A DNA stretch of 64,000 bases from Tubiluchus corallicola. Lineage: Eukaryota; Animalia; Priapulida. The notes below the pieces were generated by a model that was not told where the DNA came from, searched no databases, and saw only the letters and a list, made by a program, of their open reading frames with translations. Below, piece by piece: positions 2,265 through 62,942 of this stretch; within the stretch, counting starts at the first letter, position 1, and each line of letters starts with the position of its first letter. The position numbers and the translations under genes were made by a program. The stretch covers positions 1-64,000 of the forward strand of contig JAQGDQ010000285.1 of assembly GCA_030141605.1 (NCBI GenBank), written 5' to 3'.

Positions 2265-2570
2265 ACGGGCACTAATTAACAGAAACAGAAGATTACTTGA
2301 CATTTTCAGTTTTTTTTGTTTTTGTACGAAACTTTTGAATTTTGAAGTTGGTAGAACCAATATCATTTTGAGAGGTTCAAAGCTTTTTTTCCTATTCTAA
2401 GTGATGAGTAGAAAGCTGTCAGACTTTCTTTTGGTACAAACTATCATGCACGTTTCAACTGGCAAAGAGTTGTTTATGCCACTTTTTTAAGTTGAAGACG
2501 AGCACTAAGGTCTGGCCTGTCAGGTCTGATTTTCGAAGACTAGTATTTCATGGAAACATTAGTCTAAAAT

Positions 2571-2581
2571 TTGGGGGGCTA
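2571..2581 (+). promoter_or_regulatory. Polypurine tract (plus-strand primer)
   Basis: ttggggggcta lies immediately before the LTR start TGTGATGG; an identical copy is at 8181-8191. Confidence 0.75.
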
Positions 2582-3780
2582 TGTGATGGACCAGACTAGG
2601 TCCACCCCTTGGCTAAAGTGTGTTCTTGCACATTACAAGCAACCACCTATGTACATTATATTATGCAATTTGTTCAATGATAAATGTTTTGTTCGATTGA
2701 AGAGGCCTAACTTAGTTTGATTTTGTATAAGGAAGCTACCTGCATTGTTTACTTTATTTTTTATGGCTGTTGTTGTAATAATGTACCAGGCACCCATGAA
2801 CTATATCTGCCCCACATGTAACCTACATGTCAGTGTTATGCAGGTCATTTTGAAAGTGTGTTGGCTTCGGCCTTGTTTATTTTATTACAGGGGTGTTTTG
2901 CTTTCTCATTCAGCGTATATAGTGTTACAGTTACCTGTCTAAAGTATAAAACTACCTAGAATGTAGTGAACTGTTCCAGTAACAGGAAAATGTGCTTTTG
3001 ATATTGAGAAGTGGGTAGAATGGTCTGGAAAATGAGAGCTGTTAAAATGTTGGGTTTATACCTTTGAGGACAAACTTAAAATTTATCTGTTGAAAATGGC
3101 TGAACTGGTGTTTTATTGTGAAAAAGCCTGGACAGTTGTAAATGGTGTAATACTATCCTAATGGACAATGTGTTGTAATGCAATTGAGTGGAGTAAAGAC
3201 CAACTTTGAGCCTTCTACACAGTATAAGCAACCCAGCCCTTGTTGTCAGGGTGTGGAGGACCGGCACCTAGTACTGTCGAGCGTGGTATGCGATGTTTTG
3301 GAGATGGTATCCCTTCCATGGAGTACCCCAGTGATTGCCAATGGACTGACGTAGTGAGCGCTCACTCCAGAGATAAGTAACAGTTTACTTTTGAGCTCAA
3401 TAGTGATTATTCAAATTGGTGATATCTTGTGCACAAACTCTTATGGACAGTGAAAACTGCAGTTACTATTAGGTTACTGTTTGGTACCAAGAACTCGTGC
3501 TGTAATTCTTGAAATGGCCATCCTTAACTATTGTAATGTATTTTTTTCTTTTTCTCTTGATTCACTCATATTGTCTGTTAGTAGAATAAAAGCATTGAAA
3601 TGTTAATTAGTCTTTTAGTAAGCTTTGTATTCTGAAACAGGTACACATAAACTACAAGGACAACTCCGCATTTCAAAAGCCTTAGTATTAGTCTCGCTAC
3701 GTTACCAAAGTTAAGTGCGCTTCATACTCGTATTGCATAAGTTACTAATTACTATCACCCACGAGGAACGCCGTCATTAC
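2582..3780 (+). repeat. LTR 1 (1199 bp, terminal A missing)
   Basis: Starts TGTGATGGAC and ends CGTCATTAC; near-identical to 3781-4979 and 8192-9391. Confidence 0.95.
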
Positions 3781-4979
3781 GTGATGGACCAGACTAGGTC
3801 CACCCCTTGGCTAAAGTGTGTTCTTGCACATTACAAGCAACCACCTATGTACATTATATTATGCAATTTGTTCAATGATAAATGTTTTGTTCGATTGAAG
3901 AGGCCTAACTTAGTTTGATTTTGTATAAGGAAGCTACCTGCATTGTTTACTTTATTTTTTATGGCTGTTGTTGTAATAATGTACCAGGCACCCATGAACT
4001 ATATCTGCCCCACATGTAACCTACATGTCAGTGTTATGCAGGTCATTTTGAAAGTGTGTTGGCTTCGGCCTTGTTTATTTTATTACAGGGGTGTTTTGCT
4101 TTCTCATTCAGCCTATATAGTGTTACAGTTACCTGTCTAAAGTATAAAACTACCTAGAATGTAGTGAACTGTTCCAGTAACAGGAAAATGTGCTTTTGAT
4201 ATTGAGAAGTGGGTAGAATGGTCTGGAAAATGAGAGCTGTTAAAATGTTGGGTTTATACCTTTGAGGACAAACTTAAAATTTATCTGTTGAAAATGGCTG
4301 AACTGGTGTTTTATTGTGAAAAAGCCTGGACAGTTGTAAATGGTGTAATACTATCCTAATGGACAATGTGTTGTAATGCAATTGAGTGGAGTAAAGACCA
4401 ACTTTGAGCCTTCTACACAGTATAAGCAACCCAGCCCTTGTTGTCAGGGTGTGGAGGACCGGCACCTAGTACTGTCGAGCGTGGTATGCGATGTTTTGGA
4501 GATGGTATCCCTTCCATGGAGTACCCCAGTGATTGCCAATGGACTGACGTAGTGAGCGCTCACTCCAGAGATAAGTAACAGTTTACTTTTGAGCTCAATA
4601 GTGATTACTCAAATTGGTGATATCTTGTGCACAAACTCTTATGGACAGGGAAAACTACAGTTACTATTAGGTTACTGTTTGGTACCAAGAACTCGTGCTG
4701 TAATTCTTGAAATGGCCATCCTTAACTATTGTAATGTATTTTTTTCTTTTTCTCTTGATTCACTCATATTGTCTGTTAGTAGAATAAAAGCATTGAAATG
4801 TTAATTAGTCTTTTAGTAAGCTTTGTATTCTGAAACAGGTACACATAAACTACAAGGACAACTCCGCATTTCAAAAGCCTTAGTATTAGTCTCGCTACGT
4901 TACCAAAGTTAAGTGCGCTTCATACTCGTATTGCATAAGTTACTAATTACTATCACCCACGAGGAACGCCGTCATTACA
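3781..4979 (+). repeat. LTR 2 (1199 bp, initial T missing)
   Basis: Starts GTGATGGAC directly after LTR 1, ends CATTACA, and is followed by the PBS. Confidence 0.95.
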
Positions 4980-4980
4980 C

Positions 4981-4998
4981 TGGTGGCAGCGGTGGGAT
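4981..4998 (+). promoter_or_regulatory. Primer-binding site complementary to the tRNA-Leu 3' end
   Basis: TGGTGGCAGCGGTGGGAT is the reverse complement of ATCCCACCGCTGCCACCA, the 3' end of metazoan tRNA-Leu(AAG/TAG type) plus CCA; it lies 1 nt after the LTR. Confidence 0.88.
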
Positions 4999-5333
4999 CC
5001 GATATTACTTATGTGTACTTGCAACTGAACATTTATAAAGTATCATAGTAATTATTTTGCAGTTTTGTGGTAGACACGGTGTGTAAAACCCTTAATTATT
5101 TTTCACTGCATTTTTTGGGGTTCAAAAATTTTATTGCACTATGCCTGATTAATTATGCTAGTAAAGTTTTTACTGGACAATATTTGCTACAACAGATAAC
5201 AAGTAAACACGAAGTTACTTCTCTACAGGAAATATTTTTGAGTGACTTACAGTCATATACACACGGAATTGTATTACACTTTATTATTTTGTACAAATAA
5301 TACAGACAACATAAACGGGGGTAGTAAAGCACA

Positions 5334-7955
5334 ATGGAATTTGTGGAGTTTACACAATTACAACTCCAGTCACTGGAATTAGAACAGTTACAGGGTATAG
5401 CCCGAGAACGGGGTATAAAGTGGGAAAGACGCAGTCATGAACAGCTGGTTACAGCCATAATGGGGTGGCAAAAAGTTTGCAACACTAAACCCAGTCAACC
5501 CAAGGTACCAGACGAAGACAAAATACTTCAAGCTCAAGGGGGAGGGCTTCATACTGAACATTCAGACAAAGAAGCTGCTAATGATTCTCTTAATGATGAA
5601 GAGGAACCAGCCCTTCAGCTTGCCCACTCACCCTTACCTTCTGAATATGATTTTGACCTCGGTCTAGGTCGACCCCCACCAGCTCCACCAGATTTTGTTC
5701 AGCCAGTTAGCCCAACAGTTAATACACAAGTTGGTGGATTGCCTAAGGTTGATGTTACTATGTATGCGGCTTTTGATGCTAACAAGTTGCAAATCATATT
5801 GGAGCACCAGCGCAAGCAAGAACGAGACAAACAGGAATATGAGTTGGAGTTACGGAAAATAGAAGCTGGAATGCAAGCTCCCTGGACATCAACACCAGCG
5901 CCGCAAGTGGGAACTACGAGTGATACAGCTGCAGCCCACAGAAACCTGTGTATAAAGTACTTTGGTGAAGATGCTGAATCTCCAGACCTAGCGGAATAGT
6001 TTCGATACTTAGAAAGATGTCTGGTAGTCAATCGTATCCCCAAAGCAGACTGGCCTTGTGTAGTTGCCCGAGCTTTAGCAGGGAATGCTAGATCATTGCA
6101 GGCATACAACTGTGTCCCACAAACTGACTTGCAAGATTATGACAGGATAAAGAGTCGTGTCTTGTCCTTCTTTTCGCTTACACCAGACAGTTACAGGCAG
6201 ACTTTCCGTAAGCTGACTAGAAAACCAGATGAGTGTTATCGCGCCTATTTTACAAGAGTGCGAAATGCTGGAGATTTGTGGCTAGAAGCGGCTAATGTCC
6301 AAACTTTTGAACAAGTTAAAGAATTGTTCTACTTGGAACAAGCCCTAACTGGAGTACCCAATGATATTGCCAAATGGGTAAAGAGGAATAACTGGAACAA
6401 TTTTGATGAAGTAGCTGAGAAATGTGACAGGTATAAGTGCTCGGAAGGGGGGAGACTTGAAATTAACCCTCAGCAGGACAGCAGAGGACATAGCAATTTC
6501 AAGAAATTTCCACCCAGAGACTCTAAAGGCGCCACAGCTAAGCAGCCAGTTCCAAACCAAGAAGCCAGGATTTCTTCTTGGAAATGTTTCAATTGTGGTG
6601 GATTAGGACACATGGCCAGTAGGTGTCCATCATCCAGGCAAACGGCAAAACCACTAGAAGCAAAACGAGGAAACAAACTCCAGTTAGCGTCGACAAAGCA
6701 GAAAGACTGCATTGATGTTTCACAGACTAGTGATGAAGCATTTTGTTTTCCAGCCATGGTAAATGGTCACAAGGTAATAGTACAACGTGACACTGCAGCA
6801 AATGTGAACTGCATACATCGAAGATTCGTACGAGCAAACCAATTTTTGCCTGATCGTACAGAACAGATTCTATGTGGGCATGGCGACCGTCGTACATGTA
6901 GAGTAGCAAGGCTGCCAATTGAGTGCGAACTTGTTAAAGGTGAGCTAGAGTTTGTAGTCCAGAACAAGCTTCCGTCTGAGTGCTTACTTGGTAACAATTT
7001 TAAATCCACTTGGCAGCCTTCTAAAAAACTTGGTCCAAAACACAGCGTTCATAGAGGCCAAAAGTTTGGGAAGAAACAACCTTTTCGAACAGACAGTAGC
7101 AGATTTAAAAATTGTTCAGGAAAGTCCCAGCAGATAGAAGACCGTCACGGTGAGCAGAAAGATGTAGAGGATGATGAACACTCGAGTGAGTCTCAGGTGG
7201 TTAACCAGAAAGGGGTGTCCCATCCATTCTCAACACCAGCTCTGCAAGTCATGACTCGGTCACAAGCAAAGCAATTCAATGAAGAGTTAGAACGAGAGGA
7301 AATAGAGCGGCAGGAAGATGAAGACCATGAGATTCCTGCCCTGGTGAATGAGCAAGAAGAGGATAATTCTCACCAAGGCCAGTCACGAGAAGCACTTATC
7401 CAGGACCAAAACAATTGCATTACCTTAAAGCACCTGTACGACAACGTGATATCGGAGAAACAGGCTAAAAGTCTGGGTAAAGGATATTTTATCAGAGATA
7501 GCCTACTCTTTTTACATTTGAAAAGAGCAAAAGACGTTGATGGTAAAGATTTGATTGTCTTACCCAAAAAACGTAGACTTGAGGTCCTTCAGCATGCTCA
7601 TGACAACAAGTTAGCTGCACATTTTGGGATACAGAAGACAACAGAGAAGATTTTGCGTGAATTTTACTGGCCACATATTCATAGCGATATTCGAAGATTT
7701 GTACGCAGCTGCCCAGTCTGTCAAAAATGCAGTATACGAAAAGCAAGCGATCGTGCTAAGTTGCAACCTATTACAGTCAACGAATTACCATTTCAGAAGA
7801 TTTGCATGGACTTTGTTGGTCCACTTCCACGAACGAAATCAGGTAACCGATATGCTCTGGTTGTTACAGATTTTAGCACACGGTATCCTGAAGTATACCC
7901 CACCAGGACTCAAACTCAGTTTTTTTTGTTTTTGTACGAAACTTTTGAATTTTGA
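5334..7955 (+). pseudogene. gag-protease-integrase(N-term) polyprotein with one in-frame TAG (5997-5999), truncated by deletion
   Basis: ORFs 5334-5999 and 6096-7955 share one frame. SCAN-like capsid (LTPDSYRQTFR...LFYLEQAL), zinc knuckle CFNCGGLGHMASRC, protease-like RDTAANV, integrase HHCC (HAHD..AHFG..CPVC) and DFVGPLP. Confidence 0.88.
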
Positions 7956-8191
7956 AGTTGGTAGAACCAATATCATTTTGAGAGGTTCAAAGCTTTTTTT
8001 CCTATTCTAAGTGATGAGTAGAAAGCTGTCAGACTTTCTTTTGGTACAAACTATCATGCACGTTTCAACTGGCAAAGAGTTGTTTATGCCACTTTTTTAA
8101 GTTGAAGACGAGCACTAAGGTCTGGCCTGTCAGGTCTGATTTTCGAAGACTAGTATTTCATGGAAACATTAGTCTAAAATTTGGGGGGCTA

Positions 8192-9391
8192 TGTGATGGA
8201 CCAGACTAGGTCCACCCCTTGGCTAAAGTGTGTTCTTGCACATTACAAGCAACCACCTATGTACATTATATTATGCAATTTGTTCAATGATAAATGTTTT
8301 GTTCGATTGAAGAGGCCTAACTTAGTTTGATTTTGTATAAGGAAGCTACCTGCATTGTTTACTTTATTTTTTATGGCTGTTGTTGTAATAATGTACCAGG
8401 CACCCATGAACTATATCTGCCCCGCATGTAACCTACATGTCAGTGTTATGCAGGTCATTTTGAAAGTGTGTTGGCTTCGGCCTTATTTATTTTATTACAG
8501 GGGTGTTTTGCTTTTTCATTCAGCCTATATAGTGTTATAGTTACCTGTCTAAAGTATAAAACTACCTAGAATGTAGTGAACTGTTCCAGTAACAGGAAAA
8601 TGTGCTTTTGATATTGAGAAGTGGGTAGAATGGTGTGGAAAATGAGAGCTGTTAAAATGTTGGGTTTATACCTTTGAGGACAAACTTAAAATTTATCTGT
8701 TGAAAATGGCTGAACTGGTGTTTTATTGTGAAAAATCCTGGACAGTTGTAAATGGTGCAATACTATCCTAATGGACAATGTGTTGTAATGCAATTGAGTG
8801 GAGTAAAGACCAACTTTGAGCCTTCTACACAGTATAAGCAACCCAGCCCTTGTTGTCAGGGTGTGGAGGACCGGCACCTAGTACTGTCGAGCGTGGTATG
8901 CGATGTTTTGGAGATGGTATCCCTTCCATGGAGTACCCCAGTGATTGCCAATGGACTAACGTAGTGAGCGCTCACTCCAGAGATAAGTAACAGTTTACTT
9001 TTGAGCTCAATAGTGATTACTCAAATTGGTGATATCTTGTGCACAAACTCTTATGGACAGTGAAAACTGCAGTTACTATTAGGTTACTGTTTGGTACCAA
9101 GAACTCGTGCTGTAATTCTTGAAATGGCCATCCTTAACTATTGTAATGTATTTTTTTCTTTTTCTCTTGATTCACTCATATTGTCTGTTAGTAGAATAAA
9201 AGCATTGAAATGTTAATTAGTCTTTTAGTAAACTTTGTATTCAGAAACAGGTACACATAAACCACAAGGACAACTCCGCATTTCAAAAGCCTTAGTATTA
9301 GTCTCGCTACGTTACCAAAGTTAAGTGCGCTTCATTCTCGTATTGCATAAGTTACTAATTACTATCACCCACGAGGAACGCCGTCATTACA
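8192..9391 (+). repeat. LTR 3 (1200 bp, intact TG...CA)
   Basis: TGTGATGG...CATTACA, preceded by the PPT and followed by unique DNA. Confidence 0.95.
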
Positions 9392-9718
9392 GTGCTGTCT
9401 TCGCGTATGAAACATTTACATTGGTTCTTTTTATAGACCTGTAGCCACTCACCTAGTACCGTTATAAGATTTCAAATGTTTACGTATGTATTGTTCCAAT
9501 TTTTTATGCACTAACAAATACAGTTTAAACCGAAAATAAATTAGAGTTCGTTTCTAGCAACATAAAATGGTGATAATGGCTAGACTAATTAGACAAATAC
9601 TTTGCTCATGCCACAGGTTGCTCAATGCTGGAGTTCACACCGGACTGGATTCTTGCTGACAGATATCTGTCTATATCTGACAATTGGAATTGACTGTTTA
9701 ATGTTACGTTAAAGTGGA

Positions 9719-9937
9719 GAAGTCTTACTCCTCTGAAAATTGTGTTAGGCACAGAAGTTTTACTCATCTGAAAATTTTGTTAGGCAAGGAAGTTTTACTC
9801 ATCTGAAAATTGTGTTAGGCACAGAAGTTTTACTCATCTGAAAATTGTGTTAGGCACAGAAGTTTTACTCATCTGAAAATTGTGTGAGGCACAGAAGTTT
9901 TACTCATCTGAAAATTGCGTTTAGGCACAGAGGTTTT
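9719..9937. repeat. 35-bp minisatellite, about 6 copies
   Basis: Unit gaagttttactcatctgaaaattgtgttaggcaca repeated in tandem. Confidence 0.9.
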
Positions 9938-10886
9938 AAAAAAATTTGTAGCGTCCTGAAACCAACTACAAAGTCCAGAGAAAGTCTCACCGCACGGCAT
10001 GAATATTAACATTAAAATAGTTTGTTTTCATGGAATTAGTAATAATATTGAATATCTCATTATGGTAGTCGTTTTGTCAAGGTATAGAAACGTTCATTGT
10101 TCAACAAGTAGATAGATTGTGAACGTATAGTTTATTGAAATACACAACTATCCATAGTATTAACTTCAAGGAATGAACAACTAAAGCAATAGCAAATACA
10201 CATAGTTAAAGCACAAGTCATAACGTGTCTGTAAAAGTTAGAGAAATGTAACCTGATCCAGAAGTGTGTCAGTGTTTATGGCACAACAGATGTGTTTACA
10301 TATATGTTGTTCCTATTTTTCATAGCAGTTCAGTGCAAAGTAACATTATTTTGCATGCGGACGGTTTTTTATATTTCTAGCTTGTAAGTAGTTAATTATG
10401 CAACATTAATTTTATAAAAAATTTATAAAAATAAATTATTTAAAAAAATTATAAAACATTCGTGCTTAATCCTTAATACTTTGGCATGTATAATTTTCTT
10501 ACGTTTCTGTTTTAAATTAAAAACTCGTGGTAACATTACAGTTCAATCCAGAGTTCAGAGTCATTACTGTTGTTTCTTGGCCTCTATAGTCATCAACTCA
10601 ATCATTATTTTTTCGACTTACTGTATGAAATGTGTCGTTGAATCACTAACTGCTTTTGTTGCTTCTAATCAAGTGTTGGCGGCCTAGTTACCAGTGCTAG
10701 TTTGCTAAAAGCCTAAAGTTCGGTGCAAATGTCATGTTGACCCTTGTAATATTTTCACCATTTATTTCCGTAATGTTTTGCTTTGCGATGGATCATGATT
10801 ACATCAAATCTAATTTGTATTTATTTAACCTCATTAGCTGTGTTATCTATAAGTCATTAAATAAACATCAGTAGGAATCAAATAAT

Positions 10887-13684: not shown

Positions 13685-14530
13685 AGTAGTATAGATGTTT
13701 TGCCTCTGGCCGATTTCCCCACCCCCCCCTTTGGCTGCCCGGGGGGGTGGGGAAAAACACCCCTAAAAAAGTGCGAAAATCCGCGAAAACCCCTAAAAAA
13801 GTGTGAAAACCCGTGTGAAAGTGCGCACGTGACCGAAATCGACGAAAAAGCGCGAAAAACAAAGAAAAACGAAGAAAAGGCGTGTGAAACGAGGTAAAAA
13901 TTTTGCAGTTTTTCCCTCCCGCATGGCTTCATTTGGATCGAATGACCTTGAACTCTAGGTCACGTGACCAAAGTTCATTGACCCCTGGCCCCTGGATGGC
14001 TTCTTTTTTTGACGCCCCATTTTAAACCGCGCAAAACCGCGCGAAAGCATGTGAAAGTGTGTGAAAGCGCGTGAAAGCGTGTGAAAGCGTGTGAAAGCGT
14101 GTGAAAGTGTGTGAAACGAGGTAAAAAGCGCCTCAAACGAAGAAAAAGGGAGAAGTGGAGTTCCCGCCGAGGACTAATTAGTGCTAATTGGCGCTAATTG
14201 GGGAGCCCCTGCCACCCCTCCGCCGCGTGCAAACGTCCGTCCCGGGGGTCGGGGACACCCCCCCTGCAACCCACCCCTCCGTCGCGTGGAATCGTCCACT
14301 GCAGGCAATGAGGGAAATCTTTTTCCCGCCACTCGCGCAGTGCCGGCCCTTTTCCGCGACCACTTCTCTCTCTCGGGTGCCCTCCCTTTTCCGCGACCAC
14401 TTCTCTCGCGGGTTTAGATGTGTGTGTGTGTGTGCGTGTGGAGATTTATTTCAAATGCCAAAGTTTGATAAATGCATTTTCACAAATCTTTTTTATTGAT
14501 GGATTACAGGTGTGGAGATTTATTTCAAAC
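13685..14530 (+). repeat. Left terminal inverted repeat
   Basis: Reverse complement of 15972-16798 (mirrored spurious ORFs 13651-13932/16551-16922 and 14188-14499/16302 confirm it). Contains gcgtgtgaaa 10-mer arrays. Confidence 0.95.
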
Positions 14531-14715
14531 GCCAAAGTTCGATAAATGCATTTTCACAAAACTTTTTTTATTGATGGATTACAAAAATTTTTTTTACATT
14601 TTTTATGCAAAATACATACGTGCTAAAACTAGATTATTATTATTATGGTGACATGATAGTTCTACATTTTACGTTTTTTTCGCAAATTACACAAATTATG
14701 CAAATTACAGTAAAA

Positions 14716-15306
14716 CTACACTAATGACGACGAGCGAGTACATGGATTGTCGTCGTCGTCGTCGATGTGATACAGACAAACGTTATTGTTGTTAAAAACG
14801 AATTCGTTAAATTTGCGGAAAACGCGAGAGAAATCCTCGACCTTTGTCCCGCCCATCATTATTATGCTTCCGGTGTGAAAAATGTTCAGAGTAATTTGCT
14901 CGCATTTGCAAGTTAGTTTGGGAAATAGTTCCACTTCGTAAAACACTTCTCTAAAAGAATGCGTCGAAGGACGAACGAGTTCTTCGTACAGTGCACCCAG
15001 TTTCAATCTGCAGCGTATTTTGGCTCTGGCGGTGATGGTGCGAATTGCGATCCCGTCGGCGGGCGTCAGTCCGAGACCTTTCGAGAGTTCTTCGATCGCA
15101 TTGCGTAGTACTTTTTCCTCCGAAAAACCGTTGGCCACCACGGAGCCGGAGGCAAAAATCATCAGCGTCCCGCCCAGTCGCTTCAGCAGAACCATTTGCG
15201 GTTTTCTTTCGTAGCGTCTTCCGCCCGTTCTCCGCCGGAGTTCGTTCAGATCGAAGCGCTGCGAGAACGAAGCCGTGGCGACGATGTTGACCGTTTGGAC
15301 TGACAC
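14716..15306 (-). CDS. Divergent TATA-box-binding protein (TBP)-like protein, two-repeat saddle fold, element-encoded
   Basis: Repeat 1: VNIVATASF..FDLNEL...TLMIFASGSVVANG. Repeat 2: TITARA...LKLGAL...YEVELFPKL...LNIFHTGSIIMMGGTK. These match TBP motifs NIVST, LIFxSGK and YEPELFPGL. The start is uncertain: an in-frame GTG is at 15306 and the frame stays open to 15717. Confidence 0.85.
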   Translation of the reverse strand: MSVQTVNIVATASFSQRFDLNELRRRTGGRRYERKPQMVLLKRLGGTLMIFASGSVVANGFSEEKVLRNAIEELSKGLGLTPADGIAIRTITARAKIRCRLKLGALYEELVRPSTHSFREVFYEVELFPKLTCKCEQITLNIFHTGSIIMMGGTKVEDFSRVFRKFNEFVFNNNNVCLYHIDDDDDNPCTRSSSLV

Positions 15307-15758
15307 GTTAGAACGTAGTTGGCAATCGTTTCGGACGCCCGAACCGCTCTGCCTCGTCCGTTGCTCTGCCAACGTATGGCGGGCGGCGGGTGCTCGCTTT
15401 CCAGATCCTCTACGCGTATGACCACGCGATTTTTGGGGAGATGTTTTTTGACGAAATCGTACATCTCTGCTCCCTTGACGTAGGTGATCCTGCCTCTGGT
15501 GGTCTGTCGTAGAATGTTTTCCAATTCTGCGTACTCGATCATTCCCTCCTCCCACGAGATGCCGTGTATGTGTCTGATTAGGTAGTTGTAGGTGGATCGC
15601 TTGTGCTGGGGAACGCGATTCCAGGGGTGGGGCGGTTTGAAGGTGTAGTTGTGATATATGCCGGTCTCTATTTCGCGAATTACCAAATTTTTGACCAGGT
15701 ATTCTTCTTTTCCGCACTGGAAGGCATCTATGGTGAGAACTATGCTCGATTCAGACAT
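15246..15758 (-). CDS. DEDD/DnaQ-exonuclease-like protein of the type seen in invertebrate Polintons (possibly inactive)
   Basis: Pattern IDAF..YLVKNLVI...FKPPHPW...NYL..HIHGISWEEG..Y...YVKG.E recalls a Polinton-associated hypothetical family. Its ATG overlaps the stop of the upstream ORF (ATGTCTGA). Confidence 0.6.
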   Translation of the reverse strand: MSESSIVLTIDAFQCGKEEYLVKNLVIREIETGIYHNYTFKPPHPWNRVPQHKRSTYNYLIRHIHGISWEEGMIEYAELENILRQTTRGRITYVKGAEMYDFVKKHLPKNRVVIRVEDLESEHPPPAIRWQSNGRGRAVRASETIANYVLTCQSKRSTSSPRLRSRSASI

Positions 15759-15969
15759 CTGTGACGATGGGGGGTCCTTCTACGCCGTCGGCAACGAGTT
15801 TTCCTTCGATGACGATTTGCTTGTGATTGTTCACAAATTCCAGAGACTTGATTTTTTCGAAGGTGTATTTTTTTATGACCTTGTTGGGGGCACTCTTGCG
15901 TGCGTTGGCGCGCTTGCCGCCCCGCGTCCCCGCTTGTTGTTGTTGCTTGCGAGGAACGGTGGTTAGAGG
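15751..15969 (-). pseudogene. C-terminal remnant of a basic protein gene cut by the deletion breakpoint
   Basis: TTVPRKQQQQAGTRGGKRANARKSAPNKVIKKYTFEKIKSLEF...VTDV*. There is no ATG in the unique region, the upstream frame runs into the TIR, and the stop overlaps the next ATG. Confidence 0.5.
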
Positions 15970-15971
15970 TT

Positions 15972-16798
15972 GTTTGAAATAAATCCACACCTGTAATCCA
16001 TAATAAAAGATTTGTGAAAATGCATTTATCAAACTTTGGCATTTGAAATAAATCTCCACACGCACACACACACATCTAAACCCGCGAGAGAAGTGGTCGC
16101 GGAAAAGGAAGGGCACCCGAGAGAGAGAAGTGCTCGCGGAAAAGGGCCGGCACTGCGCGAGTGGCGGGAAAAGATTTCCCTCATTGCCTGCAGTGGACGA
16201 TTCCACGCGACGGAGGGGTGGGTTGCAGGGGGGGTCCCCGACCCCCGGGACGGACGTTTGCACGCGGCGGAGGGGTGGCAGGGGCTCCCCAATTAGCGCC
16301 AATTAGCACTAATTAGTCCTCGGCGGGAACTCCACTTCTCCCTTTTTCTTCGTTTGAGGCGCTTTTTACCTCGTTTCACACACTTTCACACGCTTTCACA
16401 CGCTTTCACGCGCTTTCACGCGCTTTCACACACTTTCACACGCTTTCGCGCGCTTTCACGCGGTTTAAAATGGGGCGTCAAAAAAAGAAGCCATCCAGGG
16501 GTCAATGAACTTTGGTCACGTGACCTAGAGTTCAAGGTCATTCGATCCAAATGAAGCCATGCGGGAGGGAAAAACTGGAAAATTTTTACCTCGTTTCACA
16601 CGCCTTTTCTTCGTTTTTCTTTGTTTTTCGCGCTTTTTCGTCGATTTCGGTCACGTGCGCACTTTCACACGGGTTTTCACACTTTTTTAGGGGTTTTCCC
16701 GGATTTTCGCACTTTTTTAGGGGTGTTTTTCCCCACCCCCCCGGGGAAATCCCCACCCCCCCCGGGAAATCGGCCAGAGGTGTAACATCTATCCTACT
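15972..16798 (-). repeat. Right terminal inverted repeat
   Basis: Reverse complement of 13685-14530, with small indels and a divergent outermost ~60 bp. Confidence 0.95.
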
Positions 16799-34302: not shown

Positions 34303-36719
34303 TTGGATCAGCTTATGTCAAAGTTCCTAAAACTGAAAATTGGCATTTTGTTTGAAAAGTTGCTACTAGTTAATCAAATACATATCAATGTCATTGTCCT
34401 GATAAAAACATGCTTCATGTGGAAAAAAAACAGTCACTCTACTGTCAGCTCAGTCTACAGAACATACTTAGTTGTCGTTATGGAATCAAAGAGGTGACAT
34501 GAGAACATGGGTGTGCAAGATGCATAAAAAAATAAATATCATGGGAGAGCTTCAGCAAGACCATAAAAGGCTGAAAAAACTGCTCGAATTTGTGGGAAAG
34601 TAACAAGTGAAACAATTTTGTCTCTAGTACGTATTAAATTTACAGCAAAATCGGAAATCAGGCCAATTCCGTTTTAAGTAGATATTTCCGTTTTAGCTGC
34701 CCAGTTCCATGAATTCCGTCCGTTTTCCGTGATATGGAAAATCGGAGGACCTATTTACGCAACTGAATAGACCACGTGGCAAAAAACAAAATATAATAAT
34801 TTAATGAAAAATGTGCAATGATACTCGATCAAATACATAAAGTATATAGGTAACCGAATAGGCAATGAAATAAGAGAACCAAATCAAATCAAAACAGAAG
34901 AATAAAGTATACATGAAGAAATAAAAAGCGAAACAAAATATGCATGTCAACTGGTACCAATAACTAAATAAATTAAGTAGCATTACCGTAGATCAACAGG
35001 GCGAAGCATGATACTCAACCAAATATGGTAAGTATAAAAATGAATAAACTACTGAACAAAAGGACAAAACATAAAGTAACAGAAATGGAGCATAATGTAG
35101 AAAAGTTATTTATGTGAGAACAGTTCGTCTATAGACGTAAATGGAATGGAATATTAAAGGAAACAGATTTATGACAAAATGATACACCCACACATTAGAG
35201 TAGAACTAACAAATAAATAGTTTATTGAGGAACAACACAACAAACGCTGTCTGCGACAATGCCCAACCATGGTGTTAAGAATAAGACTACCCGAGAATGA
35301 GTCAATGAGTGTTCCGCACGAGTTTACCTTACAAAAGTTATAGGGACCTTGAGTTGAACTCGGCTGCCGGCCTTTTTCAAAGATACCGTAAAGCAATTGA
35401 TTGATGTCATGTACGGATGTATTTGGTGATTGGTTCCACGGAGTTAACAACACGGAAAGCGAAAAAATGGGAACAGATATTAGATCGGGAACAAACAGTT
35501 TCGAGTGACGTCCTCGGATTATATCAAGACACGCTGATTTACCTAACTTCAGTATTTTTTATTATAGTGAAATAAATTCACACACGTCACATCAAATCTC
35601 TTACCGAAATTCTTTGACAAAAAGTATGATAGTTTCCAAAGTCAAAAAAGGCAATACCTCCTCAAGCAATAAGCACAGTTAGCGCACATTTGAAAATGTT
35701 CGAAGCCAAAGAACCGTGTATTCAATTTCAATTTATTGGAAATTATTTTCGGGACCGCCTTCTACGATAGTAGCAAATTCAAAATTTCAATTTTTCCAAT
35801 TCAATTTAATTTGCGTTTTTATTTCCATATACACAATATAAATGAAATAAAGTAATGATAATTAAATTATTCATCACGAAGACGGGATGGTGATTGGCGA
35901 ACAACATTATAGTCGATGAATTGAGTCATTTTTCAATACATGAAAGTATTATTGGGATGGCTCATAAGTGTAACGACTACCGATTAATGAAATAATCTTG
36001 TCAGATACAACCTCTCATAATACAAATTATTATGAAAGGTTGTATTGCTGCTGCCACTGCAAAATATCCAGACACTTTAAGGTAAGAATCTGTGAACATC
36101 AAGCTGTATTGTCTAGAAATAGTTCATCTAGCATTCACGACCATAGTTGTGCCTCTGGTCACTAGGGGTGAGCATTCTTTATCAGATAGCAAATTCGAAT
36201 CAAACCGAATTTCAAGCTTTCGAGTCCGAATCAAATTCGAACTCAGTTTTTTCGAATATTTCAAATCATTAACAAAAACCAGTATTGCAAAGCACATGTA
36301 TTATGCTTGATTTTGTTCTGCAGTAAAAATGCTACTATTCATTTATAAATTGTGCACAGAAATCATGACTAAATTATGCTGTTTCAAACGTTTTAATGCT
36401 AAAGAATATCATGTAGTTGAACCGGTGAGTTATTCAAACCCATAATAATTTAGGTTGGAACCGAATTTGAACGTTCTAACTGGAACGTTCGGTGCTTCTC
36501 TCCCTACTGGCCACTGATTTAAATACGTAATAACTAATCATTGTGACAGAACTTCAAACAACTGGGATCTATTAATAAAAGAAAGCTTACCATGTATTTT
36601 AATAATTAAGCCGTCTCTTAATGTGCAAATTAGTTCAATTTCACTAATTTTGTTTTCAAACGCTCAGCTATAGTTTTATTTATATACTAGCCAAACCCCA
36701 CAAAAAGAATTTTGTGCAC

Positions 36720-37975
36720 AAATCAACACACAACCCACACCACACCACTCCACCTCATCACACCACACTGCACCACACCATACCACTCCACCTCATCGCA
36801 CCACACAATACAACCACACCGCACCGCACCACACCATACCACCTACACACCACACCACCCACACCATACCACTCCACCACATCACACCACACTGCACCAC
36901 ACCATACCACTGCACCACCCACGCACCACACCACACCACCCACACCATAATACCCCACCACATCACACCGCACAGCACAGCACAGCACCACACCATAACA
37001 CCACACTGCACCACACCACCCACCCACCTACACACCACACCACCCACACCATACCACTCCACCACATCACACCACACCGCACCACACCATACCACTGCAG
37101 CACACCGCACCACCCACACACCACACCACCCACACCATACGACTCCACCACATCACACCACACTGCACCACACCATACCACTGCACCACCCACGCACCAC
37201 ACCACACCACCCACACCATAATACTCCACCACATCACACTGCACAGCACCACACCATAACACCACACTGCTAAACACCACCCACCCACCTACACACCACA
37301 CCACCCACACCATACCACTCCACCACATCACACCACACCATGCACCACCCACACCCACACCACACCATAATACTCCACCACATCACACCGCACAGCACCC
37401 ACACCATAACACCACACTGCACCACACCACCCACCCACCTACACACCACACCACCCACACCATACCACTCCACCACATCACACCACACCGCACCACACCA
37501 TACCACTGCAGCACACTGCACCACCCACACACCACACCACACCATAATACTCCACCACATCACACCGCACAGCACCACACCATAACACCACACTGCACCA
37601 CACCACCCACCCACCTACACACCACACCACCCACACCATACCACTCCACCATATCACACCACACCGCACCACACCATACCACTGCAGCACACTGCACCAC
37701 CCACACACCACACCACCCACACCATACGACTCCACCACATCACACCACACTGCACCACACCATACCACTGCACCGCACCACCCACACACCACACCACACC
37801 ACCCACACCATAATACTCCACCACATCACACCGCACTGCACCACACCATACCACTGCACCACCCACACACCACGCCACCCACTCCATACCACACTACCCA
37901 CACCACACCCCACACACCATCCATAGCACAACACACAAAGCACACCACCACCACACCACATCAAATCCACCACCT
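36720..37975. repeat. Complex (CACAC/CACCA)-rich tandem repeat
   Basis: Recurrent units such as cacccacaccataccactccaccacatcacaccacactgcaccacaccataccactgca. Confidence 0.93.
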
Positions 37976-44740: not shown

Positions 44741-46372
44741 TCACTGAATTACACAACAGCATCTCTGCTTATTGTCCTCACCAACAACCTCAACACTGCT
44801 GAATTTGTACTTTGTTTCTGTATAGGCATGATCGCCGGAACCCGATTTGTCCTTCTCCCTACTTGCCCTTCTAAAAACATTGGTATCAAGAATACGTAAC
44901 CCATTCGACGTTCGTCGATTACTCTTTGAATCTGGAGACGCCTCTGTAGCATTTTTCTTGGTTGCGTCGATCTCTAATGGATTTTCCAAATCATCGGATG
45001 CATCTCTGCTGTTCGTCTCTTCGTGTGAAGCTGAATTTGATGCACCAATTTTGATGGCAAGGTCTAGTCGTTCCATAGCAGTGGGAGCTACACTATCGCC
45101 ATTGTCCTTTATAGAATGAGCATCAGGTTTTCTGGTATTAAGTTTTGGTGACTGTCTCGGTGAAACACGTTTCTGCATACTGTGCAAATCTTTGTGAGCC
45201 TTTTTTACCATACTGGGTGAAGACGGCACAGCTATATCAACGTCAGCAATATTTACTGGCTCTTTGGTTTCATTTTGCAATGCCCTCACTCTTGCCTCTT
45301 CCTGAGCTTCCCTTCTTGAAAGAGCTGTTTTGTCTCTTATGCTAGTTCGCCTGATAGACTGGCTTCGGGTGTTGGTACTTTGTCTGCGCATGTGAAGTGG
45401 TCGGCGGGATAAGTTATACTCAATCTCGCTCTTTAACTCAATGATTCGATCTCGCAAATCAGGATCTTCACAAATGTCAAATGGCGTTTCATCATTGTGA
45501 GTCGTAGCCTCAATGTCTGCACCATTAGATACTAATATTTCTAGTAGGTGAGCATGACCCCAGCAAGCAGCAGCATGAATTGGCTGCCAGCCGTCGTCAT
45601 CTTGAGCATCCAAGCTAGCATGATTATCTAGTAAAAGTTCAACTACTGTTATGTAACCATTAGCACTAGCAACATGTAAAGGAGTTGCACCAACTTCATT
45701 CCTGTATTCTATGCTTTGGCCTGTTTCAATCAATATTTTTGTGTCCTTATACATCTGATGCTCGGTTGCTGATCTAGTTTCATCAATTAACTCTTGGGTC
45801 ACGCCTCTACCAGCCATAACTGACTCAATGTAATCTAATGTGATTTCATCTTCACAAATATCATAGGCCATATTTCCATCAGCATTCACAGCTAACAAAT
45901 CAGCACCCTTGTTTATAAGTAGCTTGACTAGATGTAAGTGACCACATGTGGCTGCTGCATGTAGTGGTGTCCATAATTCGGAATCTGTAGCATTAACATT
46001 AGCATTAAATTCTAATAATAGTTGCATCATTTCTTCACTGTCATCAATGCAACACTGATGCAGAGCTGTTAGGCCATCGTCATTGGTCACATCCGGACTT
46101 ACGCCTTTTGTTAATAACCTACGAACTTCTTCCACGTCATTTCTTGATGCACTTTCCAGAAGGACAACAGAAGGATCAAACTGTACTTGCGTGACCTGCT
46201 GCTTCTGTTTAACAGCAGAGTTCTTCTTTTTCTTTGAACTCAACTCCTTTTCTCGGTGAGAATATTTCTTCAGTTGTTGGCTACGTCGTTTCCGAGCGTG
46301 CTTCAAGCGCTCTTGCATAGGCATTTTCTCCAGCATGGGCATTTCTGCCATTAATTCTGAATGTTCAACCAT
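44741..46372 (-). CDS. PPP1R16A: Protein phosphatase 1 regulatory subunit 16 family (MYPT3/TIMAP-like), single coding exon
   Basis: N-terminal QERLKHARKRRSQQLKKY, RVxF-like QVQF, ankyrin repeats (DGLTALHQCCIDD, WTPLHAAATCGH, ATPLHVASANGY, WQPIHAAACWG), RRTS PKA site and C-terminal CaaX (CCCVIQ). A versus B paralogy is vertebrate-specific, so the symbol is approximate. Confidence 0.93.
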   Translation of the reverse strand: MVEHSELMAEMPMLEKMPMQERLKHARKRRSQQLKKYSHREKELSSKKKKNSAVKQKQQVTQVQFDPSVVLLESASRNDVEEVRRLLTKGVSPDVTNDDGLTALHQCCIDDSEEMMQLLLEFNANVNATDSELWTPLHAAATCGHLHLVKLLINKGADLLAVNADGNMAYDICEDEITLDYIESVMAGRGVTQELIDETRSATEHQMYKDTKILIETGQSIEYRNEVGATPLHVASANGYITVVELLLDNHASLDAQDDDGWQPIHAAACWGHAHLLEILVSNGADIEATTHNDETPFDICEDPDLRDRIIELKSEIEYNLSRRPLHMRRQSTNTRSQSIRRTSIRDKTALSRREAQEEARVRALQNETKEPVNIADVDIAVPSSPSMVKKAHKDLHSMQKRVSPRQSPKLNTRKPDAHSIKDNGDSVAPTAMERLDLAIKIGASNSASHEETNSRDASDDLENPLEIDATKKNATEASPDSKSNRRTSNGLRILDTNVFRRASREKDKSGSGDHAYTETKYKFSSVEVVGEDNKQRCCCVIQ

Positions 46373-46430
46373 CTTGACTTTGTTATGAGGTCGGACAAAG
46401 TAGATTTACTGTTTTGCAGTAGTTCCCTGT

Positions 46431-61291: not shown

Positions 61292-62218
61292 GTAAGAAGA
61301 AAATATATTTAGAGAAAAATTAAGACTTTATATGTTATGTTATATCATTTTTTATATGTAGCGTTAATAATGCAGAGTTTTGTTGTTTAGTATTGCATTT
61401 ATTTACTCTTATTTGTTTTGGTAAACCTTCCTTGCCATTTCACTGTCTAAAAATGTCTAAATTTTGTTTAATAAACTGACAGTTTTTTTCTTTTGGGCAA
61501 ATTCACTTTCATTGGCAATGTCAAAAATGTACTTGCAGTATGGCTTCATTGAAAGTTACCTTGATTGCTAGACTGGTGGACACTTGTTACTATAGTTATC
61601 ACGAATTACTATTCAAATTGTTTAAGGTAATTACTAACAAATCCAGTAAGCAGAGTATAGTTTTGCACAGTTCAAGTGAAAGTCCTCCTGTGGCAGGTTT
61701 CCATTGTTTGTGTAATTGAAATTTAAACTGTTTCTTTATTATAATTTCATATGGGATGTACCATCCAATTTCATTAGAATGTGAAGTGCATTGATCATTC
61801 TGCCCAAATTGTGATATGTCCAGTTTGTTAAATTCATACCGTCTTTTTAGCCAACAAAAACATGGTCTTAATCTGTTGGAGGACATACATGAAATCACGT
61901 GCCATGTGAATAATGACTGGTGACCATGACGAAAGTATTTGTAATCATAAGCTCTTGTGTGTGGCTCATTCAAGCCTTGTTATAATGCCTCCCTTTGTAA
62001 TGCCAACTTCGCTTAACGTCCAAGTTTTTAGCAAAACAAAATATTTATATTTGCATAGACATACATGTATTAATGTACCTGTTTATAGTGCCAAGATCAC
62101 TATAACGCCAACTTTTTTGCAGTCCCAAATTAGGCCGTTTTACTATACTTTTGCTATGCTTTTACCCAAATCTCAACTTTTATTGCCAAAAAATTCTATA
62201 CAACTTTTCTCTTTGTAG

Positions 62219-62942
62219 GTGTTTTGTTTGTGAGGAACAAGCTGCGGCATATTGCTGTCCAGCTTGTGAATTACGAACTTGTTCCTTGAAATGTGTGAGG
62301 CAACATAAGCAGCAATATCATTGTACGGGACAGCGTGACAAGACAAAATACATTGGACTTCAGGCAATGAATGATCTCACACTTCTGAATGACTATCGTT
62401 TGTTGGAATCAATAGGACGTGTCTGTGACAATGCCCAGCGCGACAGTTTGGCACATGCGCCAGTGAACTCTTTTTATGAGAAGAAAATGATCACTAAAGC
62501 TAGGCAAAAAGGCATGGAACTTCTTATGCTTCCAAAACAGTTTAGAATTTGTCGTGAAAATACAACGTTTTTTAGCCACAAGCTGCATGTTTTCTTTTGG
62601 CATATAGAGTTGATTTTTCCAGCTGTAAATGGCAGGTTTATTGAGAAAAAGCAGCACGAAGAAACAAAGTTGAAGACGGTCCTTTATAAATATTTTTCCA
62701 TTAGCTCAGATAACTGTACAATTAGCCAGAAACTAGGAAAGCATTATGAAAATTGCGGCTTGGACAATGTTTGTGTGTTTATGCCTGATGTACCAAATGA
62801 ACGAAATGTAAATGCTTCTTATACTAAGTTGGACATTAATGAAAGTATTGTTGCTAATCTCAAGGGTAAGAAGGTGCTAGAGCATCCTAAATTGTACATT
62901 GTTTTGCCTCATGAGGTTGCAAAATACAGTAAAGATAGCTAG
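62219..62942 (+). CDS. ZNHIT6: Box C/D snoRNA biogenesis protein (ZNHIT6/BCD1), main exon
   Basis: zf-HIT CFVC...YCCPACELRTCSLKCVRQHK..HCTGQRDKT, LLNDYRLLE, FWHIELIF and NLKGKKVLEHPKLYIV; acceptor ttttctctttgtag. Confidence 0.9.

What the first reader, a model, noticed from the sequence alone, without database searches (positions are those of the whole stretch)
13685..16798. Mini Polinton/Maverick-like element carrying its own TATA-binding-protein homologue
Seen: ~830 bp TIRs beginning AGTAGT enclose only ~1.4 kb, holding three overlapping, intronless, same-strand ORFs in virus-like packing; the last encodes both repeats of the TBP fold. Established: AG/AGTAGT termini and long TIRs typify Polintons, whose canonical gene set is pPolB, RVE integrase, packaging ATPase, adenain-like protease and two capsid proteins. 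TBP is not in that set; I know viral TBPs mainly from large DNA viruses (Nucleocytoviricota, mirusviruses). Inference: this is a deletion derivative of a Polinton-like endogenous virus lineage that encodes a basal transcription factor, possibly to redirect host Pol II to its own promoters.
Basis: partly seen in the sequence, partly recalled or inferred. Interest (0 to 1): 0.92.

Follow-up and report, generated by a model that had tools for sequence, protein, structure and literature searches.

The report
Mini-Polinton carrying a rewired TATA-binding protein
A 3.1-kb repeated element in what appears to be an animal genome, likely the cut-down remnant of a virus-like Polinton transposon, keeps a reading frame for a divergent look-alike of the cell's TATA-binding protein, which in full-length Polintons likely steers the host's RNA polymerase to the element's own packaging and capsid genes.

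Summary
Real, and mostly as described. 846/827-bp inverted repeats (97% alike) enclose 1.44 kb with three minus-strand frames. The last folds as a two-lobed TBP (Pfam 3e-22; pLDDT 87; Z 17.5), only 22-26% identical to cellular-type TBPs. Corrections: only the left end is AGTAGT, there is no target-site duplication, ORF1 looks 5'-truncated, and the TBP frame has no ATG before the fold. Host reads show a multi-copy family and suggest this copy is an internal deletion. Polinton origin rests on the ends, on ORF2 resembling an adintovirus accessory protein, and on metagenome Polintons that carry a short TBP with the same altered loop. The parent in this genome could not be retrieved. In those Polintons an ATAAAC box precedes the ATPase (7 of 7) and capsid-region genes (6 of 7) but not TBP (0 of 8), which suggests an early-to-late switch; the mini-element has no such box. 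The window protein keeps the TFIIB-binding glutamates but has altered DNA contacts. A TBP-like gene in polinton-like viruses is already named in a figure legend (Starrett 2021), and this scan noted Polinton TBPs on other DNA six times. Expression is not shown.

The parts
13685..14530 (+). Left terminal inverted repeat, 846 bp, starts AGTAGT; internal 10-bp tandem units
   Evidence: a host contig joins other flank DNA exactly at 13685 (X3 record 20)
14436..14583 (.). 74-bp direct duplication (14436-14508 / 14510-14583) at the inner edge of the left repeat; the right repeat holds only one copy and part of the second
   Evidence: self-BLAST, 94.6% identity
14492..14572 (-). Two AATAAA hexamers (starting 14572 and 14497) downstream of the TBP stop, likely poly(A) signals of the cassette
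   Evidence: motif scan; function inferred
14716..15306 (-). TBP-like frame, two lobes; no ATG upstream of the fold (GTG at 15306, first Met at 15195); overlaps the end of ORF2 by 61 nt
   Evidence: start search
15246..15758 (-). ORF2, 170 aa; resembles an uncharacterised adintovirus/ichnovirus protein family; predicted RNase H-like (Maelstrom/DEDD-type) layout
   Evidence: Foldseek E 1.6e-4 with a low-confidence model; Atlas leads; E 7e-5 pairwise to L006:6594-7055; 8 of 13 listed differences synonymous
15751..15980 (-). ORF1 remnant, about 75 codons, no in-frame ATG, likely the 3' part of a longer gene; its stop overlaps the ORF2 ATG
   Evidence: host contigs leave the window sequence at 15980; no family found
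15972..15980 (.). 9-nt overlap between the inner end of repeat homology and the end of the cassette as seen in the commonest X1 contig; likely microhomology of the internal deletion
   Evidence: repeat homology ends at 15972; X1 record 6 matches 15580-15980 with no difference and then departs
15972..16798 (-). Right terminal inverted repeat, 827 bp, outer end reads AGTAGG
   Evidence: two X1 contigs run on into other flanks after 16800

Best explanation
This is likely an internally deleted, non-autonomous Polinton (Maverick/adintovirus) copy that keeps both long inverted ends and a three-gene accessory cassette whose last frame encodes a predicted TBP-fold protein. Shown: the repeats, the fold, repetition in host reads, and short TBPs with the same altered loop inside gene-complete Polinton contigs. 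Inferred: (1) the copy arose when the parent's interior was deleted at a short microhomology, which cut off the start of ORF1; (2) it can move only with polymerase and integrase from a full-length helper that recognises the ends; (3) in the parent the TBP-like gene is an early gene read by the host machinery, and its product binds a non-canonical TATA-like box through an altered saddle and recruits host TFIIB and Pol II through the retained acidic stirrup, switching on packaging and capsid genes; (4) in this mini copy the gene has no target in cis and is most likely a passenger, made, if at all, by splicing or a non-AUG start.
For: Fold. Ends: left (AGT)2 fits the commonest Maverick end motif (PMC8097293 passages). 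ORF2: the top 6 Foldseek rows include Drosophila-associated adintovirus 2 and four ichnovirus ORFs, and a weak relative lies in Polinton contig L006. 10 of 11 loci fetched with the short TBP P0020 have Polinton-type gene neighbourhoods or are near relatives of those that do; L006 has pPolB, PLA2, TBP, ATPase and rve-chromo integrase. These TBPs share with the window protein the shortened K/R-P-x-Q/M first loop and a Thr where cellular TBPs have Val. A focused tree puts the window protein with them, 100/98, apart from cellular rows, and the AU test rejects a eukaryote-type clade. Residues: 3 of 4 intercalating Phe kept (F59, F136, F151 of the 204-aa frame); both TFIIB-contact Glu kept (E132, E134; their role per PMC7221094); minor-groove positions changed (T98, N67, M159). 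ATAAAC within 100 nt upstream: ATPase 7 of 7, next gene 6 of 6, capsid-region 6 of 7, TBP 0 of 8, shuffled background 5%. Multi-copy: X1 contigs at depth 536 (TBP) and 1026 (ORF1/ORF2) against 9.7 for the right flank. Selection: 3 of 4 differences of the main X1 form in the TBP frame are synonymous.
Against: No parent was seen: no pPolB, integrase or capsid gene is linked to these repeats by any search. No target-site duplication, and the right end is not (ACT)2. The ORF2 model has pLDDT 38, and the tool warns that such matches can be meaningless; ORF2 had no word-search homologue and no PDB match at E 0.001. The window protein scores higher on a eukaryote-type profile (67.7 bits) than on the narrow Polinton profile (40.0); long-branch attraction could make the clade, and the AU test shares that bias. 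It is only 22-24% identical to the Polinton TBPs. No ATG precedes the fold. A low-depth relative in X1 shows 3 synonymous, 3 non-synonymous and 1 stop-type difference in the TBP frame (single-site reading). Read depth is not a copy number, by the tool's own warning.
Confidence: 0.6

Rival explanations
1. Same origin, but the cassette in this copy is dead: ORF1 is beheaded, no TBP protein is made, and the frame is open only because the deletion is recent.
For: No ATG before the fold, no slippery site near the junction, and only a weak acceptor at 15299; ORF1 cut at the repeat; no target genes or box in cis; termini unequal and no duplication.
Against: The only close homologue, P0001 (59%), was also called from the same internal Met, so the missing ATG may be a family trait, although a contig end could also explain it. 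The main X1 form shows no difference at the 5' end of the TBP frame and keeps it open.
Confidence: 0.3
2. The mini-element is a selected satellite or defective-interfering form: it keeps the TBP cassette because the protein acts in trans on the helper's late promoters, boosting or damping helper activity.
For: High, even summed depth across both inner junctions in X2-X4 would fit amplification of the short form; what is kept is an accessory, possibly regulatory, cassette and no enzyme gene.
Against: X2-X4 are one sample and may be the window's source; their depths are sums of many short contigs. In X1 the commonest contig leaves the window sequence at 15980, and the left inner segment has depth 39 against 536, so the short form is the minority there.
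Confidence: 0.15
3. The protein is a decoy and not a promoter reader: it binds TFIIB or other basal factors and dampens host transcription or antiviral genes.
For: The TFIIB-contact glutamates are kept while one Phe and three minor-groove residues are changed.
Against: Three Phe and the whole saddle are kept; the changes are shared across the Polinton-type group and do not look like random loss; related Polintons carry a gene-class-specific box.
Confidence: 0.12
4. A foldback/Mutator-type DNA transposon that captured a host TBP or TRF2 gene.
For: Long, internally repetitive inverted repeats; no Polinton core gene inside; higher score on a eukaryote-type profile.
Against: 22-26% identity to cellular-type TBPs; AU p 0.0006; AGTAGT end; ORF2 resembles an adintovirus protein; virus-like gene overlaps; no transposase fragment.
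Confidence: 0.04

Closest known systems
Polintons/Mavericks/adintoviruses of animals (PMC8097293, passages; PMC8502044, passages and sections 3.2 and 3.4)
   Same: Long inverted ends, (AGT)2 at the left end, compact overlapping genes, an accessory gene shared with an adintovirus.
   Different: 3.1 kb; none of the core genes; no 6-bp duplication; right end imperfect.
TBP-labelled gene in MELD viruses with adintovirus-like PolB (Starrett et al. 2021, PMC8502044 Fig. 5 legend; bioRxiv 10.1101/697771 legends)
   Same: A TBP-like gene in a polinton-like element.
   Different: Only named in a legend, in a section on non-animal datasets; I could not see the figure, so which element carries it is unknown to me; no analysis of residues, promoter or function in the passages read.
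Short TBPs of Polinton contigs L001-L010
   Same: About 165-175 aa core-only TBP, same altered first loop, same side of the tree; L006 also has an ORF2-like gene.
   Different: 22-24% identity; they have their own ATG and sit directly before the ATPase; their genomes carry an ATAAAC box that the window element lacks.
Cellular TBP (PF00352; yeast 1ytb, human 1cdw, archaeal 1mp9)
   Same: Two-lobed saddle (Z about 17.4), three of four Phe, TFIIB-contact Glu pair.
   Different: About 22-24% identity; first-lobe stirrup shortened and its Phe lost; second-lobe Asn-Ile-Val replaced by Thr-Ile-Thr.
Viral TBPs of large DNA viruses and the herpesvirus late TBP mimics (PMC7221094, passages; PMC12529657 and PMC7498053, search listing and start of abstract only)
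   Same: Virus-encoded TBP fold; for the herpes proteins, steering host Pol II to late viral promoters is the working analogy.
   Different: Per PMC7221094 viral TBPs have mostly diverged at the TFIIB-contact positions and often come with a viral TFIIB; here the glutamates are kept and no TFIIB gene was seen. Herpes mimics are large multi-domain proteins (577-1005 aa).

Membership tests
Polinton/Maverick | Long terminal inverted repeats | tested here: met
   846/827 bp, 800 of 825 columns identical
Polinton/Maverick | End motif (AGT)2//(ACT)2 or (AG)3//(CT)3 | tested here: inconclusive
   left end perfect, right end 5 of 6 (motif from PMC8097293)
Polinton/Maverick | 6-bp target-site duplication | tested here: not met
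   none at the termini; best is a 5-of-6 match needing a 3-nt shift on both sides; contigs in X1 and X4 join the right flank to other DNA, so the site may be rearranged
Polinton/Maverick (autonomous) | pPolB, rve integrase, ATPase, protease and capsid genes | tested here: not met
   absent from the 1.44-kb interior
Polinton/Maverick (non-autonomous derivative) | A full-length parent in the same genome with the same ends | not testable with these tools
   no genome held; read laying shows departures at 15980 and 15307 but does not return the longer forms
Polinton/Maverick (non-autonomous derivative) | Cargo genes of Polinton type | tested here: met
   ORF2 (weak) and TBP-like frame
TBP superfamily | Two-repeat saddle fold | tested here: met
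Canonical eukaryotic TBP | Four intercalating Phe and conserved minor-groove Asn/Thr/Val | tested here: not met
   3 of 4 Phe; T98, T100, N67, M159 differ; the roles of these positions are from my own knowledge of TBP-DNA structures
Canonical eukaryotic TBP | C-lobe Glu pair that binds TFIIB | tested here: met
   E132 and E134 present in sequence (PMC7221094); binding itself untested
Host TBP/TRF2 paralogue (recent capture) | Nests inside animal TBP or TRF2 | tested here: inconclusive
   rejected against 14 eukaryote-type rows that I assigned by similarity; no labelled animal TBP or TRF2 was in the set
Viral late-promoter TBP system | Cognate non-canonical box ahead of late genes, bound by the viral protein | tested here: inconclusive
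   box present in distant Polinton loci, absent from this element; binding not testable
Maelstrom/DEDD-like nuclease (ORF2) | RNase H fold with acidic catalytic and Zn-binding residues | tested here: inconclusive
   strand-helix order fits, Atlas Maelstrom row 0.86 is a lead only, PDB Maelstrom E 0.32; no Pfam hit
Foldback/Mutator DNA transposon | DDE transposase and 9-10-bp duplication | tested here: not met
   neither found in or beside the element

The most novel reading that the evidence does not exclude
Animal Polintons widely carry an old, own lineage of core-only TBPs that pair a rewired DNA-reading surface with the host-type TFIIB stirrup, giving these small endogenous viruses a one-protein early-to-late switch on host Pol II; this mini-element is an amplified satellite that kept just that regulator and acts in trans on its helper.
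Probability: 0.2. Interest if true: 0.85.

Novelty: new variant of a known kind. Interest (0 to 1): 0.5.

Why it matters
How Polintons, which have no RNA polymerase, time the expression of their capsid genes is open. A compact TBP that keeps the host TFIIB contact but changes its DNA contacts, together with a gene-class-specific box, makes a testable answer and would be a natural orthogonal promoter-factor pair. This particular copy is a weak place to test it, since it lacks target genes and a clear start; its value is as one more, divergent member and as a case of what a deletion derivative keeps.

Tried and rejected
No whole genome is held, so no parent search. No second copy in the window. 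IMG/VR scans with the TBP frame, ORF2, alignment A1 and the L006 ORF2-like protein returned no locus (one search counted one relative but gave no locus). A metagenome scan with A2 found no relative among 161 candidates. Word searches: one homologue for the TBP frame among 190 candidates, none for ORF2 among 50; the A1 profile gave 49 hits, mostly archaeal-type TBPs; only lengths near the query were searched. Cluster look-ups for 20 proteins gave no Polinton label. A long 344-codon protein overlapping ORF2 was rejected: the lack of stops is only mildly unusual (p 0.03-0.04) and 11 of 13 listed differences are non-synonymous in that frame against 8 of 13 synonymous in ORF2 (the table showed 40 of 56 rows). 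A frameshift fusion was not supported: no slippery-like site within 120 nt of the TBP frame's start. ORF1 has no Pfam or Atlas match above 0.82. No RNA holder was listed; X6, only guessed to be RNA, has one contig with two short diverged matches to ORF2, which shows nothing about expression. X5 holds short diverged matches to the TBP frame and ORF2 (6 records). The first 125-row tree was only a quick tree with half of its branches open. The wide structural search was not obtained. No complex prediction was run. Literature: nine searches found no paper analysing a Polinton TBP beyond the Starrett legends; one supplement of PMC8502044 had no TBP hit; figures and bioRxiv supplements could not be seen and may say more; two recent preprints had no TBP or TATA mention in the main text; subscription journals and Repbase are not covered.
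Full report
Observation. The element spans 13685-16798. Local alignment gives a left repeat 13685-14530 and a right repeat 15972-16798, with 800 of 825 aligned columns identical. The left end starts AGTAGT; the right end, read inward, starts AGTAGG, and the first ~50 nt differ. No target-site duplication sits at the termini. The element has GC 0.51 and CpG o/e 1.1-1.4, its flanks GC 0.29-0.34 and o/e 0.7. The window looks like animal DNA (microsatellites, a Gypsy-type element, ankyrin and BCD1 genes); no genome is held.

Reading frames. All three lie on the minus strand. ORF2 (15758-15246, 170 aa) is the only one with its own ATG, which overlaps the ORF1 stop. ORF1 has no in-frame ATG and runs into the right repeat. 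The TBP frame is open from 15750 to 14716, but its first Met is at 15195, inside the fold. The long upstream stretch is not a protein: 11 of 13 differences listed for run X1 are non-synonymous in that frame, while 8 of 13 are synonymous in ORF2. How the TBP frame is started is unresolved: there is a GTG at 15306, a weak acceptor at 15299, and no slippery-like site nearby. The only close homologue, P0001 (59%, one Logan contig of 1855 bp), was called from the same internal Met.

The TBP fold is real. Pfam PF00352 matches two stretches at E 3.2e-22; 35 PDB sequences match, all TBP or TBP fusions; the AlphaFold model has pLDDT 87, Z 17.5 and rmsd 2.8 A over 177 residues to archaeal TBP and Z 17.4 to yeast and human TBP, and E 1e-10 to viral proteins, several named TBP. 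Identity to cellular-type rows is 22-26%. In the 204-aa frame, three of four intercalating Phe are kept (F59, F136, F151), the first-lobe stirrup is shortened to K-P-Q-M, the second-lobe Asn-Ile-Val is Thr-Ile-Thr, and the two Thr before the conserved Gly are N67 and M159 (the roles of these positions are from my own knowledge). The glutamate pair that binds TFIIB (PMC7221094, passages) is kept. This reads as a changed DNA preference with an intact contact to the host adaptor (inference).

Link to Polintons. (a) (AGT)2 is the commonest Maverick end motif (PMC8097293, passages). (b) A single-sequence model of ORF2 is poor (pLDDT 38), yet its top six Foldseek rows include a Drosophila-associated adintovirus 2 protein (E 1.6e-4, 23%) and four ichnovirus ORFs; the Atlas gave unnamed, mostly arthropod clusters at 0.95-0.96 and Maelstrom at 0.86. 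(c) A metagenome scan with P0020, a short TBP from the same loose branch of the first tree, gave 11 loci. Ten encode close relatives of it, and all but the shortest show the same Polinton-type neighbours; L011 is a weak, unrelated-looking match. L006 has pPolB, KilA-N, PLA2, TBP, ATPase and rve-chromo integrase (its capsid-region ORFs had no Pfam capsid match and are assigned by position), and an ORF with a weak match to ORF2 (E 7e-5 pairwise, 18%). (d) These TBPs share the shortened loop and an invariant Thr with the window protein (15 of 15 rows). A 39-row tree joins them at 100/98, and the AU test rejects placing the window protein with 14 eukaryote-type rows (p 0.0006). Against this: the branches are long, the window protein scores 67.7 bits on a eukaryote-type profile and 40.0 on the narrow Polinton profile, my group labels came from similarity, most of the 125 hits were left out of the focused tree, and no labelled animal TBP or TRF2 was included.

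Host reads. Four runs from two studies hold most of the interior. X2-X4 are one sample and may be the window's source. In X1, single contigs cover 14700-15452 at depth 536 with 4 differences and 15580-15980 at depth 1026 with none, against 9.7 for the right flank; the tool warns that depth is no copy number, so I read this as 'likely tens of copies, recently amplified'. Other flanks join at 13685 (X3) and after 16800 (X1), which confirms the termini. The commonest X1 contig leaves the window sequence at 15980, while repeat homology reaches inward to 15972: a 9-nt overlap, as expected if this copy arose by a microhomology-guided deletion that cut off the start of ORF1 (inference). One X1 contig leaves at 15307, where ORF2 meets the TBP frame, so a form without the TBP gene may exist. 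Contigs in X1 and X4 join the right flank (16796 onward) to other DNA, and no joint to the left flank is listed, so the site is polymorphic or rearranged, which may explain the missing duplication. Unexplained: in X1 the repeat contig (depth 384, both ends pooled) is shallower than the cassette would predict. Only part of each table was shown (24 of 410 and 14 of 68 loose-end rows).

Mechanism. Following a lead from earlier notes, I counted ATAAAC within 100 nt upstream of starts in eight of the loci (L004, nearly identical to L003, and L010, L011 left out; one PLA2 start estimated): ATPase 7 of 7, the next gene 6 of 6, capsid-region 6 of 7, PLA2 4 of 5, integrase 3 of 4, basic gene before TBP 2 of 5, zinc finger 1 of 5, pPolB/KilA-N group 1 of 7, TBP 0 of 8; shuffled background 5%. 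The loci are kin and the motif was chosen after inspection, but the split by gene class is what an early TBP switching on late genes predicts. The window element has no ATAAAC, and no late gene to carry one. So the likely picture is: in the parent, a Polinton-encoded TBP reads a private box and recruits host TFIIB and Pol II; in this copy the gene is a passenger between ends that a helper could still act on. None of the binding, expression or mobilisation steps is shown.

What is known. Starrett et al. [quoted passage not shown] 5 legend, section 3.4 read whole; bioRxiv 10.1101/697771, passages); the figure was not visible to me. TBP-like proteins of large DNA viruses are reviewed in PMC7221094. 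Nine searches found no analysis of a Polinton TBP. This scan's earlier notes report Polinton TBPs six times and miniature Mavericks three times on other genomes; they are unchecked AI notes and I used them as leads only. None matched this protein by sequence.

Verdict. A real, likely non-autonomous Polinton derivative with a genuine, divergent TBP-fold frame. It fails the test for an autonomous Polinton and for a canonical TBP, and passes for the fold and, indirectly, for Polinton cargo. New variant of a known kind; interest 0.5.

Noticed in passing
window 2306-8489: Gypsy-type LTR element with near-identical direct repeats (2306-2879 and 7916-8489; part repeated at 3778). The frame 6000-7955 has SCAN, zinc knuckle, protease and integrase zinc-binding matches but no reverse transcriptase match, so it looks internally deleted and recent.
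   Followed up: partly
window 44741-46405 (-): Uninterrupted 554-codon ankyrin-repeat frame ending in CCVIQ; from recall it resembles PPP1R16/MYPT3; lack of introns may mean a retrocopy.
   Followed up: partly
window 62106-62942 (+): Uninterrupted frame with zf-HIT and BCD1 domains (box C/D snoRNP assembly factor type).
   Followed up: partly
L006:237-18113 (and L001-L010): Near-complete Polinton from a metagenome with a TBP gene directly before the packaging ATPase and an ATAAAC box ahead of ATPase and capsid-region genes; a better system than the window element for testing the promoter model.
   Followed up: yes
L001:218 and 1451, L006:7151 and 8405, L008:431: Genes without the ATAAAC box in the 80 nt shown share a TCATTCTTTC-like word followed by an AACATCTCT-like word before the start, a possible early-promoter signature.
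   Followed up: no
window 15436-15595: Run X1 shows a depth peak of about 8000 inside ORF2, far above the rest of the element; a short stretch shared with another repeat or many relatives.
   Followed up: no
window 15307: One X1 contig leaves the element exactly where ORF2 meets the TBP frame, and ORF1/ORF2 depth is about twice TBP depth: the TBP gene may be a swappable module.
   Followed up: partly
window 36656-37926 and 9683-9956: C/A-rich satellite of about 86-nt units with extreme strand skew, and a 35-nt tandem array.
   Followed up: no
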